DNA from: a virus
Taxonomy: Duplodnaviria > Heunggongvirae > Uroviricota > Caudoviricetes
Length of the DNA stretch: 22,252 nucleotides
Direction: 5' to 3' (one strand)
Virus record (IMG/VR): IMGVR_UViG_2693429719_000008
Location: 1 to 22,252 of that record
Shown here: piece after piece, positions 1 through 16,604 of the stretch
Layout of the letters: every line of letters starts with the position of its first letter
Position numbering within the stretch: the stretch's first letter is position 1
Notes under the pieces: model-generated
Databases searched by the model: none
The model's input: the letters and a program-made list of their open reading frames with translations, nothing else
Told to the model about the DNA's origin: nothing
Position numbers and translations under genes: made by a program

Positions 1-1569
1 CTCTTTCGCGGTATCCGTACCGATTTCGGTAAGGTAAACCCCGTTTTTGTTTCGCTTACGTGGCATGCTGGCCACCGGCTTTCCGTAGACGGATGCCCCT
101 TTAATGGGGATCACCCGGAACAGCCCATGTTTTTTCGAGCGTTCATACACAATGGTCGGGTCAATCCCGCCAGTATCCCAGCAGATACGGGATACCGACA
201 TTTCTGCACCATTCCGGCGGATATAGGTTTTATTGATGGCCTCATCCACACGCAGCAGCGTCTGTTCATCATCGTGGCGGCCCATAATAATCTGCCGGTC
301 AATTAGCCAGCTTTCCTCACCCGGCCCCCATCCCCATACGCGCATTTCGTAGCGATCCAGCTGGGAGTCGATACCGGCAGTCAGGTAAGCCACACGGTCA
401 GGAACGGGCGCTGAATAATGCTCTTTCCGCTCTGCCATCACTTCAGCATCCGGACGTTCACCGATTTTCGCTTCCCATGTCTCACCGAGCGTGGTGTTCA
501 CGAAGGTTTTACGTTTTCCCGTATCCCCTTTCGTTTTCATCCAGTCTTTGACAATCTGCACCCAGGTGGTGAACGGGCTGTACGCCGTCCAGATGTGAAA
601 GGTCACGCTGTCCGGCGGCTCAATCTCTTCACCGGATGACGAAAACCAGAGAATGCCATCACGGGTCCAGATCCCGGTCTTTTCGCAGATATAACGGGCA
701 TCAGTGAAGTCCAGCTCCTGCTGGCGGATGACGCAGGCATTATGTTCGCAGAGATAAAACACGCTGGAGGGATCATCCGGCGTCCATTTGAGGCCAAACG
801 GCGTCTCTTTATCGCCAAATTTAAGGTACTGCTCCTCCCCGCAGTGCGGGCAGGCAACATGAAAACGCATAAAATGCGGGGATTCACTGGCTGCACGCTC
901 AATCTGACAGGTGCCTCTCACTTTGGGCGTGGAGCCACGGATGGACTTTGGCCAGACCGAGCCTTCAATACGCTTGTCACCCAGGAACGTCGGAGAGCCT
1001 TCCTGTTCAATATCATCATCAAAGGCAGCAAGTTCATCATAACCCGCCACATCCACTGACTTTTCACGGTAGTTTTTTGCCGCTTTACCGCCCAGGCACC
1101 AGAAGCCACGACCATTGGTGAAACGCTTCATGGTGAGCGTGTTATCCCGGTGCTTTTTGCCATACCACGGGGCCAGCGCCAGCAGCGACGGAATATCACG
1201 GATGGTCGGCTCGACGTGGGTTTTCATAAAGTTCTCGGCATCACCATCCGTCGGCAACCAGATAAGGGTGTTGCGCTGCTTATGCTCTATGAAGTAGGCA
1301 TAAACACCCAACAGCATTTTGGAATAACCGACACGGGCAGACTTCACCACATTTACCTCGCGGATGTAGTCGCTGCCCATCGCATTCATGATGGCCCGCT
1401 GAAAGGGCAGTGTTTCCCAGCGCCCTTCCTGGTATGCGGATTCTTTCGGGAGATAGTAATTAGCATCCGCCCATTCAACGGCGGTCTGTGGCTCCGGCCT
1501 GAACAGTGAGCGAAGCCCGGCGCGGACAAAATGCCGCAGCCTGTTAACCTGACTGTTCGATATATTCAC
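1..1569 (-). CDS. A: Terminase large subunit gpA, N-terminal ~523 codons; gene runs off the window start
   Basis: RC of 1567-1569 is GTG followed by NISNSQVNRLRHFVRAGLRSLF; RC of 1-60 translates in the same frame to RKRNKNGVYLTEIGTDTAKE; both match lambda A as I recall it. Not in the ORF track because no stop falls inside the window. Confidence 0.9.
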   Translation of the reverse strand, partial: MNISNSQVNRLRHFVRAGLRSLFRPEPQTAVEWADANYYLPKESAYQEGRWETLPFQRAIMNAMGSDYIREVNVVKSARVGYSKMLLGVYAYFIEHKQRNTLIWLPTDGDAENFMKTHVEPTIRDIPSLLALAPWYGKKHRDNTLTMKRFTNGRGFWCLGGKAAKNYREKSVDVAGYDELAAFDDDIEQEGSPTFLGDKRIEGSVWPKSIRGSTPKVRGTCQIERAASESPHFMRFHVACPHCGEEQYLKFGDKETPFGLKWTPDDPSSVFYLCEHNACVIRQQELDFTDARYICEKTGIWTRDGILWFSSSGEEIEPPDSVTFHIWTAYSPFTTWVQIVKDWMKTKGDTGKRKTFVNTTLGETWEAKIGERPDAEVMAERKEHYSAPVPDRVAYLTAGIDSQLDRYEMRVWGWGPGEESWLIDRQIIMGRHDDEQTLLRVDEAINKTYIRRNGAEMSVSRICWDTGGIDPTIVYERSKKHGLFRVIPIKGASVYGKPVASMPRKRNKNGVYLTEIGTDTAKE

Positions 1570-2089
1570 TCAGCAACCCCGGTATCAGTTCATCCAGCGC
1601 GGCTGCTTTGTTCATGGCTTTGATGATATCCCGTTTCAGGAAATCAACATGTCGGTTTTCCAGTTCCGGAAAACGCCGCTGCACCGACAGGGGGATCCCG
1701 TCGAGAATACTGGCAATTTCACCTGCGATCCGCGACAGCACGAAAGTACAGAATGCGGTTTCCACCACTTCAGCGGAGTCTCTGGCATTTTTCAGCTCCT
1801 GTGCGTCGGCCTGCGCACGCGTAAGTCGATGGCGTTCGTACTCAATAGTCCCTGGCTGGAGATCTGTCTCGCTGGCCTGCCGCAGTTCTTCAACTTCCCG
1901 GCGCAGCTTTTCGTTCTCAATTTCAGCATCCCTTTCGGCATACCATTTTATGGCGGCGGCAGAGTCATAAAGCACCTCATTACCCTTCCCACCACCTCGC
2001 AGAACGGGCATTCCCTGCTCCTGCCAGTTCTGAATGGTACGGATACTCGCACCGAAAATGTCAGCCAGCTGCTTTTTGTTGACTTCCAT
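1544..2089 (-). CDS. nu1: Terminase small subunit Nu1
   Basis: 181 aa MEVNKKQLADIFGASIRTIQNWQEQGMPVLRGGGKGNEV... is near-identical to lambda Nu1 as I recall it; stop overlaps the A start as in lambda. Confidence 0.95.
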   Translation of the reverse strand: MEVNKKQLADIFGASIRTIQNWQEQGMPVLRGGGKGNEVLYDSAAAIKWYAERDAEIENEKLRREVEELRQASETDLQPGTIEYERHRLTRAQADAQELKNARDSAEVVETAFCTFVLSRIAGEIASILDGIPLSVQRRFPELENRHVDFLKRDIIKAMNKAAALDELIPGLLSEYIEQSG

Positions 2090-2300
2090 TGTTCATTCCA
2101 CGGACAAAAACAGAGAAAGGAAACGACAGAGGCTAAAAAGCCCGTTTTCAGCACCTGTCGTTTCCTTTCTTTTCAGGGGGGGTTTTAAATAAAAACATTA
2201 GGTTACGGCGAAGAAGAACGGAAACGCCTTAAACCGGAAAATTTTCATAAATAGCGAAAACCCGCGCGCCTTCCGCCCCGTAACGTTCTGGATCGCCGGA
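2090..2300. other. cos region (cosB, cosN, cosQ side); cohesive-end 12-mer equivalent at 2267-2278
   Basis: RC of 2161-2266 matches the first ~110 nt of the lambda left end (CGCGGGTTTTCGCTATTTATGAAAATTTTCCGG...); the cosN flank CGTTACG is present at 2279-2285. Confidence 0.75.
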
Positions 2301-2456
2301 AAGGACCCGAAAATGATAATACATATCAATTACACTTAAAGGGGGGGGTTAATTTGTTCACATCAACACTCCGGACCCCAATGGCCTTCTACTCTGGTTT
2401 TGCCATAAAATAGTCCTGATACATATTCATATCAGTTAGTCATATACGGAAAAAAT

Positions 2457-2783
2457 ATGGGCATTACTATTTTCAGCAGTGAAATACAGGATGTTGATAG
2501 CGAAGCGATGTACAAGAGTTGGCTAGCAACCCATTCCGATGGATTCGTTATTAATCTGCTTAAGTCGGCCAGCGGGAAAGGCAGAAAAAATGATGCCAGA
2601 TTTACGCGGATTCATCGAGCCTCATGCAAATCAATCAACCCGTTAATCAGCCCAAAAAATCACGCCGGCTTTACTACTGGCCGATACCAAAAAGTATGTG
2701 TTCTTACGCTTGACGAGGCCGAGTCCACCGCAGGCCAACTAACAGGACTGCCAACCATCCAGAGATGTCATTGGTGTATATAA
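2457..2783 (+). CDS. Hypothetical protein, cargo gene next to cos, transcribed opposite to the terminase genes
   Basis: 108-aa ORF preceded by an AT-rich region and followed by a hairpin terminator; no family recognised. Confidence 0.35.
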   Translation: MGITIFSSEIQDVDSEAMYKSWLATHSDGFVINLLKSASGKGRKNDARFTRIHRASCKSINPLISPKNHAGFTTGRYQKVCVLTLDEAESTAGQLTGLPTIQRCHWCI

Positions 2784-4635: not shown

Positions 4636-5095
4636 TTACCACCCCACCAGCCTCTTTAAATCGGGAAATCAGGTCACCGATTTTATGTTCATACTGACCG
4701 TAACCTGCTCCGGGTAACGAAGCCCAGATATTGCTGCAACAGTCGATTGCCTGACGGATGTCACCGCGATCAATCATTAGTAAAGCACCACGCTCCTTAA
4801 TCTGCTGCAATGCAACAGCATCCTGGCTTTTAGGAGAGAAGTCTGTCAGCCCTAACTGCTTGCGGTAAGCATCCCACCAGCGTGAAAGAAGTTGATAACG
4901 GCCTGCGGCTGTTGATTTGAGTTTCGGGTTTAGCGTGACAAGTTTTCGAGGGTGATCGGAGTAATCAGTGAAGAGTTCGCCACCGACAATAACGTCATAA
5001 CCGCGGTTACGTGTCGGTTGTCGCCCGTTATCCGTTCCTTCTGACCACGCCAACATATCGAGGAAAGCTTTACGCTGAGGATTAAGATTTTGCAT
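4619..5095 (-). CDS. R: Endolysin, lambda R-type lytic transglycosylase
   Basis: 158 aa ...NPQRKAFLDMLAWSEGTDNGRQ...YDVIVGGELFTDYSDHPRKLVTLNPKLKST...GRYQLLSRWWDAYRKQLGL... closely matches lambda R as I recall it. Confidence 0.9.
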   Translation of the reverse strand: MQNLNPQRKAFLDMLAWSEGTDNGRQPTRNRGYDVIVGGELFTDYSDHPRKLVTLNPKLKSTAAGRYQLLSRWWDAYRKQLGLTDFSPKSQDAVALQQIKERGALLMIDRGDIRQAIDCCSNIWASLPGAGYGQYEHKIGDLISRFKEAGGVVNEVEL

Positions 5096-5399
5096 TTTTC
5101 ACCCCTGTCAGTCGTTCCCAGAAGTACGTCAGTGCAACCGAGCCCATCGCACCACTAATCCCCGCTGTCGCGAGAATCATGTAAATACTGAATCCACTTT
5201 CGATACTGATCAGGCCACCAATAACACCGGTGAATCCCGATACCACTATCTGAGCCAGAGCATTTATCCAGCTCCACGTTGCTTTACTTTGCTTCACATC
5301 TATCAGATAGCGGACCAAACCGCCCCAACCTGCGATGATCAGCAAAACGAGCCAGAACGCTCCGGCAAGGCTCTCTTTTTCGTGCATATGAATAGCCAA
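5082..5399 (-). CDS. Holin (three predicted TM segments, dual-Met N-terminus MAIHM)
   Basis: 105 aa with three hydrophobic stretches, immediately upstream of and overlapping the endolysin gene; not lambda S by sequence. Confidence 0.7.
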   Translation of the reverse strand: MAIHMHEKESLAGAFWLVLLIIAGWGGLVRYLIDVKQSKATWSWINALAQIVVSGFTGVIGGLISIESGFSIYMILATAGISGAMGSVALTYFWERLTGVKNAKS

Positions 5400-5615: not shown

Positions 5616-6419
5616 ATGACAGAAAAAGATAACATTGGTAAGTTAATTTGGCATATTGCTTGCGATGAATCTGGCATTGATGGGCAACGTTTCTACGGCT
5701 TTGGCAGTCTGTGGATGAAGTACCAACGCCGTGGGGATTTCTGTCAACTAATCAGAGAACTACGCAGCAAACATGGTTTTTTTGAAGAAATAAAATGGCA
5801 AAAAGCCCATTCAAAAAGATACTCTGAATTTTATCTTGAGCTGATCGACTTATTCTTTAGAGTTCCTTGGCTAGCTTTTCATTGTATCGTGGTTGAAAAA
5901 TCAATAGTAAACAAGACATTTCATAATGGGGATTATGACCTGGCAAGGAGAAAGCACTTCACAAATCTCATTACCACAAAAATTAGCTCTGTAATTTCTG
6001 CACACCCTGAAAGAGACAGTTACTTCAGGATTGAAGTTGATCCTATCGCATCTCGTTATAAAAAGGCCGATGAAGAACTAAATGTTATTGCCAATAACAT
6101 ATTGAATAGAAAATTTGGTCGTAAAGGGATAATCAGCAGTGTAGTGACAAAAGACTCTAAAGCATCTGAAAACATTCAGCTAGCCGATTTTTTCTTAGGT
6201 GCGGTTATGTGCGCATATCAAGGAAAAGCTTCATCTGAAGCCAAAATAAGAGTATCAAACTATGTTGCTTCATATTTAGGCTGGGATCATTTGCAATATG
6301 ATACATGGCACACTGAGAGAAAATTTAATATCTGGTATTTTTATGATAAAACTCGAGGGTCACGAGATATAGAAACTCAAAATGTTAGCTTAAAGTATCC
6401 ACTTCCCCAAAAGAAATAG
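5616..6419 (+). CDS. DUF3800-like protein, cargo gene of unknown function
   Basis: 267 aa with N-terminal HIACDESGIDG and C-terminal NIQLADFFLG motifs that I associate with DUF3800; lies in an AT-rich island with its own upstream AT-rich region. Confidence 0.6.
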   Translation: MTEKDNIGKLIWHIACDESGIDGQRFYGFGSLWMKYQRRGDFCQLIRELRSKHGFFEEIKWQKAHSKRYSEFYLELIDLFFRVPWLAFHCIVVEKSIVNKTFHNGDYDLARRKHFTNLITTKISSVISAHPERDSYFRIEVDPIASRYKKADEELNVIANNILNRKFGRKGIISSVVTKDSKASENIQLADFFLGAVMCAYQGKASSEAKIRVSNYVASYLGWDHLQYDTWHTERKFNIWYFYDKTRGSRDIETQNVSLKYPLPQKK

Positions 6420-6640: not shown

Positions 6641-7330
6641 TCAATCCAGTTTTGCAATACTTTGCTGTGAAAATGTCGTCTTTTGTTTTGAACGTGTTCT
6701 CGTTACAAGCAATAAAGCTTCGCTATCAAGCTGTAGAAAAATGTGCTTCATTGCAACCCAGCGTTCAGTAAATGTCTCAGACCAGTTTTTTGATGTCACT
6801 CCCACCAGTGATGCCAGCTCCTGGTATTCATAGGTCTTACGCCCTGCCAGCTCGTTCTTCACATCCTGTGCCGCCAGCCAGATCAACTTCTTCAAACGTT
6901 CCAGTGTCTTACCTGCAATTTTTCTGGTACCCAACAGAGTCTTAAACTCGCTCCATGCCCACTGCGTTATGGTGACCTGATGTTCCCAGCGAACACTTTC
7001 GCTGTAACTCCACAGCAACCACGCTTTCTGATGTTCTTCGAGAGACAGAACCGCGCGGCGCCATGACGAGGTTGAGAACTCAACCTGGCTTACCAGTGCA
7101 ATGGATGAACCTTTTGCGTACGACTGCTTACCGGAAATCGGCGGATTATCCAGCGTAATCATCCTGCCAGTTACCTCATCCAGAATGCGCAGCTTCTTTC
7201 GTTTGTATGTACCAGTATCAAATTGTGCATGCTCCAGCCAGGCTTCAAGCTGTCCTTTCGTTGCTCCGCTCAAATCAGCGGTAGCCACAATGAGTTGCTC
7301 GCGGACATACTGTAAATATTGGGTATTCAT
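6641..7330 (-). CDS. Putative late-gene antiterminator, Q-position protein (long cysteine-free type)
   Basis: 229-aa ORF in the Q slot between ylcG/rusA and the lysis genes; start overlaps the ylcG-like stop; contains no Cys, so it is not a lambda/82/21 zinc-finger Q. Assignment is mainly positional. Confidence 0.4.
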   Translation of the reverse strand: MNTQYLQYVREQLIVATADLSGATKGQLEAWLEHAQFDTGTYKRKKLRILDEVTGRMITLDNPPISGKQSYAKGSSIALVSQVEFSTSSWRRAVLSLEEHQKAWLLWSYSESVRWEHQVTITQWAWSEFKTLLGTRKIAGKTLERLKKLIWLAAQDVKNELAGRKTYEYQELASLVGVTSKNWSETFTERWVAMKHIFLQLDSEALLLVTRTRSKQKTTFSQQSIAKLD

Positions 7331-14127: not shown

Positions 14128-14237
14128 TATCAATTCCTATTGGTATTACAATGAATGGATAATAGCAATGCGTATTAACCATGGCAATAGCAAAACGTGT
14201 TTTGACCATCAATACGCAAGCGTATAAATTAAAACTT
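14128..14237. promoter_or_regulatory. OR region: three 16-bp operator sites at 25-bp spacing with divergent pR and pRM
   Basis: Sites AATAGCAATGCGTATT (14161-14176), AATAGCAAAACGTGTT (14186-14201), AATACGCAAGCGTATA (14211-14226). pR on the minus strand: -35 TTGCCA (14182-14187), 17-nt spacer, -10 TATTAT (14159-14164). pRM -10 TATAAA at 14223-14228 places the start close to the cI ATG. Confidence 0.6.
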
Positions 14238-14930
14238 ATGAAAAAAGAAACTCTTGCTGATCGCTTAAACCTAGCGATGGAACAATCTGGGATGTCTCAA
14301 GGCGCTCTTGCAAAGGCGTCTGGCGTAGCTCAACCCACAATCTGGAGACTGACAAGCGGCAACGCGCGCGGCTCAACAAAAATTGTTGAAATAGCTAATG
14401 CATTGGGTGTTCGAACAGAGTGGCTCTCATCAGGCATAGGCCCGATGAGAAATGACGGTCAACAATCAGGGAAGCCTACTGTCAACCATTCCAAATACTT
14501 CAAGATTGACGTTCTTGATATAGAAGTGAGTGCCGGGCCGGGAGTCATCAACCGTGAGTTTGTAGAAGTCCTACGCTCGGTTGAGTACTCGTTTGACGAT
14601 GCTCGTCACATGTTCGATGGCAGGAAGGCGGAAAATATCCGCATCATTAACGTACGTGGTGACAGCATGTCAGGAACAATCGAACCAGGTGATCTGCTGT
14701 TCGTTGATATCACGGTTAAATCTTTCGACGGTGATGGCATCTATGCGTTTCTGTACGACGACACAGCCCATGTAAAGCGCCTGCAAATGATGAAGGATAA
14801 GCTGTTGGTTATCTCTGATAACAAGAGCTACTCACCGTGGGACCCGATCGAGAAAGACGAGATGAACCGGGTGTTCATTTTTGGGAAAGTCATCGGGAGC
14901 ATGCCGCAGACCTACAGGAAGCATGGGTAG
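14238..14930 (+). CDS. cI: CI-type prophage repressor (N-terminal HTH, C-terminal S24 LexA-like autopeptidase)
   Basis: MKKETLADRLNLAMEQSGMSQGALAKASGVAQPTIWRL... HTH, then VRGDSMSGTIEPGDLLFVD and AHVKRL (Ser/Lys dyad context). The track ORF starts at 14181, but that would place operators inside the coding sequence. Confidence 0.85.
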   Translation: MKKETLADRLNLAMEQSGMSQGALAKASGVAQPTIWRLTSGNARGSTKIVEIANALGVRTEWLSSGIGPMRNDGQQSGKPTVNHSKYFKIDVLDIEVSAGPGVINREFVEVLRSVEYSFDDARHMFDGRKAENIRIINVRGDSMSGTIEPGDLLFVDITVKSFDGDGIYAFLYDDTAHVKRLQMMKDKLLVISDNKSYSPWDPIEKDEMNRVFIFGKVIGSMPQTYRKHG

Positions 14931-15053: not shown

Positions 15054-16076
15054 ATGAAAGATAACAGACAAAAAGTCGTTCATTATAAAAAAGCAGTAAT
15101 CCCACACAGCAAATCATCATTACAAAACATACTACTTAGTATTATAGGTGAGGGCGGCGTTGCAGAAAAAGTACTTAGTAGACAAGAAAAAATAACACCT
15201 TCAGATGAAAATTCGGGGTATCGTTTCTTAAATAAAAGCGACACATACAAAACTATACTTTTTGGGCAACTGGTTTTATTTGAAAAAGACAAAAGCCAGT
15301 CTCTATTAGAGCTTAGTGATAATGTTAAATTTTATGACATTAACTCCATCACGTCTAATGATATAATTATTGATGGAGATAAACGTAGTGACAAAAAAAG
15401 AGAGTTTGTAGATTCAATTTTATATTTTGGTGTACTAAACAACCATGTCATGATCGTTCAATCCACATCGCTTCGAGCAAGGGAGCTTGAGGCGCATTTG
15501 AATTGGCTAATTAATACATTCACAGATGAAAAAGAATCTGTGTTAATGCTTCAAGATAAGCCATCCGAAGAAACGATGAAAAAAATGGAGAAAGCACCAG
15601 CCAAGAGCATAAAAATTGGTGGATTACCCATTACTTCAGAAGTTAAAAATTCAGAGAACCAAACACCCTCCTTTTCAAATGGTTCGGTGAAGACAATAAA
15701 ATACCGCCCAATAGGGAAAGGAGGTGCGCTACTAAAAGCATTTTTTGGCGATAACTGGGCAAATGATATAAACATTAAAGATTCATTAGATGAGGCCAAT
15801 TTACAAGTAAGCCTCGAGATTACATACTTCAGAAAAACAAATGATAGCGGTCAAGCTGTTATAGACAGTATTGCTACCTCACTACGACATCTAGATGAGG
15901 ATGATATTAGCATCAAACTTCAAGGCGGTGGGGAAATAACGGGAAAAGAGATAAAATTATCCGGAAAAATTAGCGTTGAACATAACAATGGCATTATTGA
16001 TGAAAATGATTTATTCTTAAAAATGCATAAGTGGCTGTTCTCAAAACTTGATGCCGGAGAATTGGTTGCAAAATAA
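15054..16076 (+). CDS. Hypothetical soluble protein in the rexA position, candidate phage-exclusion component
   Basis: 340 aa, AT-rich, directly downstream of cI on the same strand; no Walker or nuclease motif recognised. Confidence 0.5.
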   Translation: MKDNRQKVVHYKKAVIPHSKSSLQNILLSIIGEGGVAEKVLSRQEKITPSDENSGYRFLNKSDTYKTILFGQLVLFEKDKSQSLLELSDNVKFYDINSITSNDIIIDGDKRSDKKREFVDSILYFGVLNNHVMIVQSTSLRARELEAHLNWLINTFTDEKESVLMLQDKPSEETMKKMEKAPAKSIKIGGLPITSEVKNSENQTPSFSNGSVKTIKYRPIGKGGALLKAFFGDNWANDINIKDSLDEANLQVSLEITYFRKTNDSGQAVIDSIATSLRHLDEDDISIKLQGGGEITGKEIKLSGKISVEHNNGIIDENDLFLKMHKWLFSKLDAGELVAK

Positions 16077-16097
16077 CCTACCAAAAGGAGGGCGATA

Positions 16098-16604
16098 ATG
16101 AAATCGAACATCATCCACCTTATTGGTATGTTGGTCTTCTATTTTGCTGGTTACTTTTTGTTCAAGTTAGCATTGGGCTATATTACACCGGGTGTTGTCC
16201 TAACAGCTCCGTGGGCTGTGGTTGGACTCATGCAATTGCCATTATCATATTGTATACAAGCCATTTTTAAGGCAAATGAGGCCAATGACCACTCGTCTTT
16301 AACCCCTAGTGAGGTTAGGCGATTAGTGCCAATAGTCAAATCCAAGAGACTGAAATTGGTTTTATTATTAGCTTTCTATGTATTTTCAACTTTGTTTGTA
16401 ATCTTGGGGTTAATAGCAAGCACAAATGATCAAGCCCTACTCTTCAGGGTCTTAAAAATTTCAGGTGGATTACTCTTTATTTCTCTCTATACCAGTGTAT
16501 TCGTTCATAAAATAATGGTTGAGCTTCAAGAGTTTAAAGCGTTATTAAACCGAAGAGAATCAGAGAAGAAGGAAAGAGAGTCACTCCTGGATAGATTAAA
16601 ATGA
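16098..16604 (+). CDS. Four-TM membrane protein in the rexB position, candidate phage-exclusion component
   Basis: 168 aa with four hydrophobic segments and a charged C-terminal tail (NRRESEKKERESLLDRLK); GGAGG RBS; starts 22 nt after the preceding gene. Confidence 0.5.
   Translation: MKSNIIHLIGMLVFYFAGYFLFKLALGYITPGVVLTAPWAVVGLMQLPLSYCIQAIFKANEANDHSSLTPSEVRRLVPIVKSKRLKLVLLLAFYVFSTLFVILGLIASTNDQALLFRVLKISGGLLFISLYTSVFVHKIMVELQEFKALLNRRESEKKERESLLDRLK

What the first reader, a model, noticed from the sequence alone, without database searches (positions are those of the whole stretch)
2261..2285. cos core differs from the lambda cohesive end at 6 of 12 positions while the flanks are lambda-like
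The flanks match lambda (CGTTACG on one side, CGCGGGTTTTCGCTATTTATG on the other), but the 12-mer between them reads GGGCGGAAGGCG on the lambda top strand where I recall lambda having GGGCGGCGACCT. The adjacent terminase genes Nu1 and A are essentially lambda-identical, so a changed cosN could mean either a degenerate, non-packageable prophage or a variant cohesive end tolerated by lambda-type terminase.
Basis: partly seen in the sequence, partly recalled or inferred. Interest (0 to 1): 0.45.

Follow-up and report, generated by a model that had tools for sequence, protein, structure and literature searches.

The report
Natural variant of lambda cohesive-end site
This is the DNA-packaging cut site (cos) of a lambda-like prophage; its sticky end differs from lambda's at five positions, in the half of the site already known to tolerate change, and the same variant recurs in intact, isolated phages, so it is an ordinary working allele and not a sign of decay.

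Summary
On the minus strand, window 2278..2267 reads GGGCGGAAGGCG between CGTTACG and CGCGGGTTTTCGCTATTTATG. Lambda's 12-mer is indeed GGGCGGCGACCT. The two differ at 5 of 12 positions (bp 7, 8, 9, 10, 12), not 6.

[quoted passage not shown] Published genetics shows that substitutions there barely affect terminase, and natural variation there is common. Every element known to matter is intact: cosQ, bp 1-6, both CG pairs flanking the nicks, cosB R3/R2/R1, Nu1 and gpA.

The same allele sits at 166 places in 155 of 5,426 complete E. coli genomes, against 7,405 canonical places. It is also in 23 PLSDB plasmids, at least one of them an intact N15-like phage-plasmid, and in the isolated temperate phage PhiR46.1.

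No terminase residue tracks the allele.

Verdict: a functional, recurrent minority cosN allele cut by lambda-type terminase, giving ends incompatible with lambda's. The degenerate-prophage reading is not supported. Interest is low.

One mildly notable point: sites with lambda-type flanks show two discrete alleles with almost no intermediates.

The parts
2267..2278 (-). cosN cohesive-end 12-mer GGGCGGAAGGCG (bp 1 = 2278, bp 12 = 2267). This is the inferred 12-nt 5' overhang.
   Evidence: Aligned column for column with the annotated lambda/DE3 cos site.
2267..2272 (-). Right half of cosN, bp 7-12: AAGGCG in place of lambda CGACCT (5 of 6 differ). This is the only unusual part.
2273..2280 (-). 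Left half of cosN, bp 1-6 GGGCGG, plus the CG that flanks the top-strand nick. Identical to lambda.
   Evidence: CG at bp -2/-1 was not fixed by the search pattern and is invariant in 119 IMG/VR sites; bp 1-6 were fixed by that pattern.
2265..2266 (-). CG (bp 13-14) flanking the bottom-strand nick, conserved.
   Evidence: PMC4669245 section 14 says these CG pairs are highly conserved.
2302..2308 (-). cosQ heptamer GGGTCCT, the packaging-termination signal, identical to lambda.
2214..2229 (-). cosB R3 (bp 50-65 in the numbering of PMC9026076), the TerS-binding site that positions TerL. Identical to lambda.
   Evidence: alignment; numbering.
2155..2170 (-). cosB R2 16-mer AGAAAGGAAACGACAG, inverted relative to R1.
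2114..2129 (-). cosB R1 16-mer CTGTCGTTTCCTTTCT.
1544..2089 (-). Nu1 (TerS), 181 aa, 3 substitutions relative to lambda (V46A, A75T, L132I).
1..1569 (-). A (TerL), GTG start at 1569, runs off the window start. 523 aa are visible, with 2 substitutions relative to lambda (T450I, I459V).

Best explanation
The site is the functional cos of a lambda-type prophage carrying a natural minority allele of cosN.

Shown: cosQ, bp 1-6, the CG pairs at both nick positions, cosB (R3, R2, R1) and the lambda-type Nu1 and gpA are all present, with lambda spacing.

Inferred from published lambda genetics: TerS bound at R3 anchors TerL to nick the bottom strand between bp 12 and 13, largely regardless of the sequence at bp 7-12. 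A second TerL nicks the top strand at the conserved left half. The result is a 12-nt 5' overhang, GGGCGGAAGGCG.

The overhang has the same G+C content (10 of 12) and nearly the same predicted duplex stability as lambda's, so the chromosome should cyclise normally with its own partner end. It would pair with a lambda end at only about 6 contiguous positions. The allele therefore changes cohesive-end compatibility, not packageability.
For: (1) All five changes fall in bp 7-12. bp 1-6, both CG flanks, cosQ and cosB are identical to lambda.

(2) PMC4669245 reports three things. Mutations at bp 7-12 have minimal effect, for example C11G has none whereas the symmetric G2C lowers yield about 10-fold. 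N15 (bp 9, 12) and Gifsy-1 (bp 8, 9, 11) differ naturally in this half. Lambda terminase gives equal yields on cosN-lambda and cosN-N15.

(3) The exact allele recurs widely:
- 166 places in 155 of 5,426 complete E. coli genomes, against 7,405 canonical places;
- 23 PLSDB plasmids from E. coli, Shigella sonnei, E. albertii and E. fergusonii;
- 7 of 119 IMG/VR sites.

(4) It occurs in demonstrably or apparently functional elements. [quoted passage not shown]

(5) There is no terminase co-variation. No column of gpA (4 variant vs 28 canonical sequences) or Nu1 (4 vs 49) segregates with the allele. The window's gpA is 99.8% identical to gpAs next to canonical cos.

(6) The allele is combined with several cosQ-cosN spacers and with at least three TerS/cosB types, and with lambda-type gpA wherever a TerL is present.

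(7) Predicted overhang duplex energy is -18.6 kcal/mol against -19.0 for lambda. A lambda/variant heteroduplex gives -9.5.

(8) The early and lysis genes checked in the window are intact.
Against: - No virion end of any phage with this allele has been determined. No phage record starts at this 12-mer, so the nick positions and the 12-nt length rest on homology.
- This allele differs at 5 positions, more than the alleles tested experimentally (2 for N15), so full nicking efficiency is an extrapolation.
- bp 11-16 read CGCGCG here, which could in principle blur the bottom-strand nick position.
- The window lacks the last 118 residues of gpA and all head and tail genes, so the competence of this particular prophage is not shown.
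- A close relative, the SCU-301 prophage, has several tail genes annotated as frameshifted. These could be sequencing errors or real decay.
Confidence: 0.85

Rival explanations
1. The cos site is dead. The five substitutions abolish nicking or cyclisation, and the prophage is a decaying remnant that can no longer be packaged.
For: The site shows 5 of 12 differences from the canonical end. A closely related prophage in E. coli SCU-301 has frameshift-annotated tail genes. Only about 2% of lambda-type cos sites carry this allele.
Against: The changes avoid every position known to matter. The identical hexamer is found in an isolated temperate phage and in an intact phage-plasmid. It recurs unchanged in many different flanking contexts, which decay would not produce. 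Nu1, gpA and the early and lysis genes checked in the window are intact.
Confidence: 0.04
2. The allele is functional, and it marks a second, selectively maintained cohesive-end compatibility type. bp 7-12 are constrained to match the local population of phages. Mixed concatemers or recombinants between the two types give chromosomes with unmatched ends, creating a partial barrier between lineages.
For: Sites with the lambda-type right flank show two discrete alleles with almost no intermediates: 111 CGACCT, 7 AAGGCG and 1 CGACCG across at least 4 cosB types. The equally long spacer bp -8..-3 has 10 haplotypes. The allele is enriched on phage-plasmids: 16 of 166 variant places are on plasmids, against 19 of 7,405 canonical places. 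A 2-nt end mismatch already lowers viable yield 4-fold. The lambda/variant heteroduplex is predicted to pair at only 6 bp.
Against: Dimorphism could equally reflect one old substitution block spread by recombination, together with the heavy sampling of near-identical E. coli prophages. No fitness data exist. Across other cosB families many further hexamers occur (GAGCGT, GAGCGG, GCGGCG and others), as expected if the half-site drifts freely.
Confidence: 0.1
3. Sequencing or assembly artefact at a G+C-rich site.
For: None beyond the local G+C richness.
Against: The identical 37-mer is found in 155 independent complete genomes, 23 plasmids and 2 phage records.
Confidence: 0.01

Closest known systems
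Bacteriophage lambda cos (cosQ-cosN-cosB; cohesive end GGGCGGCGACCT)
   Same: cosQ GGGTCCT, bp 1-6, both CG nick flanks, bp 13-~70 including R3, then R2 and R1, the spacing to Nu1, and Nu1 and gpA at 98-99% identity.
   Different: bp 7, 8, 9, 10 and 12 of the cohesive end; 4 positions in the cosQ-cosN spacer; a few bases in the I1 region. Rotational symmetry of the 22-bp cosN falls from 10 to 8 positions.
cosN of phage N15 / phiD326 (differs from lambda at bp 9 and 12) and of Gifsy-1 (bp 8, 9, 11)
   Same: [quoted passage not shown] For N15, lambda TerL was shown experimentally to cut the site at full efficiency (PMC4669245).
   Different: The allele here differs at 5 positions, not 2 or 3. 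It sits next to a lambda-specific tripartite cosB and lambda Nu1, not the single-R3 cosB of N15. It has not been tested experimentally.
cos of mEp213 / LLS (GGGCGGCGCGCT)
   Same: Another right-half variant, inferred from sequence in a lambdoid phage (PMC12315714).
   Different: It has two differences from lambda (bp 9 and 10) and very different head genes.
Escherichia phages PhiR46_1 (PV340565) and YDC107_1 (CP025712), and phage-plasmids such as pAH01-1
   Same: They carry the identical 12-mer and flanks, a lambda-type cosB, Nu1 at about 93% identity and gpA at about 99% identity to the window.
   Different: They are N15-like telomere phage-plasmids (protelomerase, RepA, SopAB). The window is an integrative lambdoid prophage with int/xis, O/P, and Red exo/bet.

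Membership tests
lambda-like cos site (12-nt 5' cohesive ends, cosQ-cosN-cosB) | cosQ heptamer GGGTCCT about 23 bp upstream of the top-strand nick | tested here: met
   Window 2302..2308 (-), same spacing as lambda.
lambda-like cos site (12-nt 5' cohesive ends, cosQ-cosN-cosB) | [quoted passage not shown] | tested here: met
   These are the conserved features named in PMC4669245 section 14 and summarised from Vahanian 2017 in PMC9303873.
lambda-like cos site (12-nt 5' cohesive ends, cosQ-cosN-cosB) | Tripartite cosB (R3-I1-R2-R1, with R2 inverted) at fixed distance from cosN | tested here: met
   R3 at bp 50-65 is identical to lambda. The R2 and R1 inverted 16-mers are at 2155..2170 and 2114..2129. 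IHF binding at I1 was not tested.
lambda-like cos site (12-nt 5' cohesive ends, cosQ-cosN-cosB) | Followed by the TerS (Nu1) and TerL (A) genes of the lambda family | tested here: met
   Nu1 differs at 3 of 181 aa and gpA at 2 of 523 aa from lambda. The gpA C-terminus lies outside the window.
lambda-like cos site (12-nt 5' cohesive ends, cosQ-cosN-cosB) | Terminase actually produces 12-nt 5' overhangs at this position | not testable with these tools
   This needs virion end sequencing or an in vitro cos-cleavage assay. No deposited phage record begins at this 12-mer.
Canonical lambda cohesive-end compatibility group (ends anneal with lambda, 21, phi80, 434) | Cohesive end identical to GGGCGGCGACCT | tested here: not met
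   5 mismatches, at bp 7, 8, 9, 10 and 12. The predicted lambda/variant duplex pairs only 6 bp, at -9.5 against -19.0 kcal/mol.

The most novel reading that the evidence does not exclude
The AAGGCG end may be a second, selectively maintained 'cohesive-end type' among Escherichia lambda-type packaging modules. It is concentrated in N15-like phage-plasmids and has spread into integrative lambdoids. The near absence of intermediates would then mean that bp 7-12 are held by selection for end-matching within a recombining phage population, contrary to the published view that these positions are unconstrained. A further possibility is that the CGCGCG created at bp 11-16 shifts or blurs the bottom-strand nick, giving a different overhang length.
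Probability: 0.1. Interest if true: 0.4.

Novelty: new member of a known kind. Interest (0 to 1): 0.15.

Why it matters
It matters little beyond correct annotation. A prophage with this end should not be scored as defective because its cos does not match lambda exactly, and tools that locate cos by the canonical 12-mer will miss about 2% of lambda-type sites in E. coli.

It offers a natural 5-mismatch test case for two published claims: that the cosB-proximal half of cosN is sequence-tolerant, and that end mismatch reduces viability.

The two-allele pattern hints, weakly, that end compatibility may shape recombination between phage-plasmids and integrated lambdoids.

Tried and rejected
- **Key survey paper.** Vahanian et al. 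2017 (Virology 509:140), the survey of natural cosN variation, is not held. I could not check whether this exact allele is already listed there.
- **Literature search for the sequence.** A full-text search for GGGCGGAAGGCG and its complement found only unrelated plant and Streptomyces papers.
- **Terminase co-variation.** A test for terminase residues co-varying with the allele was negative. The variant set was only 4 sequences, and the window contributes only 523 of gpA's 641 residues.
- **Species-level scan.** The one-genome-per-species scan for the variant gave one real hit (Escherichia sp. E1V33). The other five hits are in environmental metagenome-assembled genomes (Actinomycetota, Acidobacteriota, Loktanella) and I take them to be chance matches; I did not inspect them. 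The scan therefore says little about range outside Escherichia.
- **Simple inversion.** I considered whether the hexamer arose by inversion of the lambda sequence. The reverse complement of lambda GCGACCTC is GAGGTCGC, against GAAGGCGC here, so two further changes would be needed. This is no better than plain substitution or import. This check was done by hand from the sequence.
- **Source genome.** The window's source genome is not in the E. coli collection. The best matches cover 80% of the query at 99.2% identity, so the rest of this prophage could not be inspected directly.
- **Artefact.** Rejected on recurrence.

Full report
**What is there**

The minus strand of the window is lambda's conventional top strand. 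Reading it, window 2308..2072 contains the following elements:
- cosQ (GGGTCCT, 2308..2302);
- a 21-nt spacer;
- CG, then the 12-mer GGGCGGAAGGCG (2278..2267), then CG;
- a stretch identical to lambda through R3 (bp 50-65, 2229..2214);
- the I1 region;
- the inverted R2 (2170..2155) and R1 (2129..2114) 16-mers;
- the Nu1 start codon at 2089.

Nu1 (1544..2089) differs from lambda at 3 of 181 residues. Gene A starts with GTG at 1569 and runs off the window; it differs at 2 of the 523 visible residues. The cos pattern occurs once in the window, with none expected by chance.

**Check of the observation**

The quoted flanks and the 12-mer are exact.

The count is wrong by one. The ends differ at bp 7, 8, 9, 10 and 12, and bp 11 (C) is retained, so the figure is 5 of 12. 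The left flank is lambda-like only for the seven bases quoted; the rest of the cosQ-cosN spacer differs at four positions.

**What the changes hit and miss**

All five substitutions lie in the right, cosB-proximal half of the cohesive end. The left half, both CG dinucleotides next to the nick positions, cosQ and cosB are unchanged.

This is the pattern the Feiss laboratory describes for natural and induced cosN variation (PMC4669245):
- Mutations at bp 7-12 have minimal phenotype. C11G has none, while the symmetric G2C costs about 10-fold in yield.
- The explanation given is that TerS bound at R3 anchors TerL for bottom-strand nicking.
- N15 and phiD326 differ from lambda at bp 9 and 12, and Gifsy-1 at bp 8, 9 and 11.
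- The CG pairs and cosQ are conserved.
- Lambda terminase gives the same burst on cosN-lambda as on cosN-N15.

A later survey (Vahanian et al. 2017) is summarised by others as finding the first 4 bp and the two flanking bp on each side highly conserved. I could not read that paper.

**How common the allele is**

I searched with a 37-mer centred on the variable hexamer, so that only exact carriers can seed a match.

| Collection | Variant (AAGGCG) | Canonical (CGACCT) |
|---|---|---|
| Complete E. coli genomes | 166 places in 155 of 5,426 genomes (150 chromosomal, 16 on plasmids) | 7,405 places in 4,097 genomes (19 on plasmids) |
| Phage records | 2 | 53 |
| PLSDB plasmids | 23 non-mobilizable plasmids, mostly 42-50 kb (E. 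coli, Shigella sonnei, E. albertii, E. fergusonii) | not searched |
| IMG/VR sites with the lambda-type right flank (first 120 stretches returned) | 7 | 111 (plus 1 CGACCG and 1 spurious match) |

The allele therefore makes up about 2-6% of lambda-type cos sites. It is strongly over-represented on plasmids.

**Is it functional?**

One of the two phage records, PhiR46_1 (PV340565), has ECOR13 as its recorded host. [quoted passage not shown] Its genome is an N15-like phage-plasmid with a complete lambda head and tail module.

Plasmid pAH01-1 is the same kind of element. It has protelomerase, SopAB, RepA and 56 genes with no pseudogenes.

Within the window, every gene I checked is full length: int, exo, bet, the S24 repressor, O, P, NinB, RusA, Q, holin and endolysin.

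None of this proves that this particular prophage is inducible. It does remove the reason for suspecting that the cos site is dead.

**Does the terminase co-vary?**

It does not. I aligned complete gpA from 3 variant loci plus the window's partial gpA against 28 canonical sequences, and Nu1 from 4 variant loci against 49 canonical. No column segregates with the allele. The window's gpA is 99.8% identical to gpAs that sit next to canonical cos.

The allele also appears in several different contexts:
- with at least five different cosQ-cosN spacers;
- with lambda-type cosB and Nu1;
- with a different cosB and a chimeric TerS whose N-terminal DNA-binding domain is not lambda's, which from memory resembles phage 21 (L009, L048);
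- next to an Nu1-like protein that is not followed by a TerL, possibly a satellite (L072).

Wherever a TerL is present, it is lambda-type gpA.

**Mechanism**

Two steps are inferred from lambda genetics. TerS at R3 positions TerL to nick between bp 12 and 13 irrespective of the bp 7-12 sequence. A second TerL nicks at the conserved left half.

The overhang properties are computed, not measured. The overhang keeps 10 of 12 G+C. Its predicted self-duplex energy is -18.6 kcal/mol, against -19.0 for lambda. A lambda/variant hybrid pairs only 6 bp, at -9.5.

The functional consequence is therefore a change in end compatibility, not in packageability. A 2-nt mismatch already lowers viable yield four-fold, so a 5-nt mismatch would probably be lethal to a chromosome with one end of each type.

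**What is mildly interesting**

Across 119 IMG/VR sites sharing the lambda-type right flank, and spanning at least four cosB types, bp 7-12 show only three haplotypes (111, 7 and 1). The equally long spacer stretch bp -8..-3 shows ten. The search pattern fixed bp 1-6 and most of bp 13-25, so invariance at those positions is by construction; bp 7-12 and the spacer were free to vary.

In a wider scan anchored on cosQ, many further hexamers appear, each tied to its own cosB family: GAGCGT, GAGCGG, GCGGCG, GAGCAT and several singletons.

So the half-site varies freely between families but looks dimorphic within the lambda-flank family. This could reflect selection for end-matching. It could equally reflect one old block spread by recombination, together with redundant sampling. 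I cannot separate these possibilities here.

**Comparison and novelty**

The site passes every testable criterion for a lambda-like cos site. It fails only identity with the canonical cohesive end, which is not a defining feature of the group as Feiss defines it.

Right-half cosN variation and its tolerance by terminase are established knowledge. This particular hexamer, with 5 differences against 2-3 in the described cases, is not printed in any paper I could search. It is present but unannotated in public phage, plasmid and genome records. I therefore file it as a new (or at least undescribed in accessible text) member of a known kind, with low interest.

**Limits**

- No physical ends are known for any carrier of this allele.
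- Nicking efficiency on a 5-substitution half-site is extrapolated from milder alleles.
- The CGCGCG run at bp 11-16 leaves a small chance of an altered nick position.
- The co-variation test has only four variant sequences.
- The source genome is not in the collections searched.
- A close relative, the SCU-301 prophage, has frameshift-annotated tail genes of uncertain meaning.

Noticed in passing
window 5616..6419 (+): A DUF3800 protein (267 aa) sits between Q (6641..7330, -) and the holin (5082..5399, -), in the opposite orientation. This is the classic moron slot where Stx phages carry the toxin genes. It matches the PADLOC candidate defence family PDC-M04A (E = 7.5e-35).
   Followed up: partly
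window 2457..2783 (+): A 108-aa ORF lies between cos and the lysis cassette, transcribed opposite to the late operon. It has no Pfam, PHROG or PADLOC match. A related prophage in E. coli SCU-301 has a hypothetical protein annotated at the corresponding position.
   Followed up: partly
window 15054..16604 (+): A two-gene cassette (340 aa and 168 aa) lies immediately downstream of the S24-type repressor (14181..14930), at the position of lambda rexAB. It matches only PHROGs of unknown function and has no PADLOC hit. It may be an uncharacterised prophage-encoded exclusion or defence pair.
   Followed up: partly
L140 (67, 8202, 10738), L160, L176, L185: Several IMG/VR contigs carry two or three cosQ-cosN-like sites (GGGCGG plus GAGCGT or GAGCGG alleles) within 2.5-8 kb of each other. 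They may be tandem satellites or PICI-like elements with their own cos.
   Followed up: no
L009 12072-12805; L048 2615-3348: Here the variant cosN is followed by a different cosB (repeats containing CATGTCGG) and a 181-aa TerS. The first ~70 residues of this TerS are not lambda's ([29 protein letters not shown]...), while the rest is identical to the window's Nu1. Lambda-type gpA follows. This looks like a natural specificity-domain swap.
   Followed up: partly
L072 4116-4803: Here the variant cosN is followed, about 160 bp later, by a 175-aa Nu1-like protein and then a 91-aa ORF where a TerL would be expected. This is consistent with a satellite (PICI-type cos plus Rpp-like redirecting protein). 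The identification was not tested.
   Followed up: no
E. coli genome collection: 16 of 166 variant cos places are on plasmids, against 19 of 7,405 canonical places. Nearly half of the plasmid-borne lambda-type cos sites therefore carry the variant end, which suggests it is the usual allele of an Escherichia N15-like phage-plasmid lineage.
   Followed up: partly
window 2176..2182 and 2340..2347: There are two homopolymer runs near cos. One is C7 (minus strand) inside the I1 region, where lambda has ATACCCTC. The other is C8 (minus strand) about 30 bp upstream of cosQ. No function is known for either, and both are prone to length errors in sequencing.
   Followed up: no
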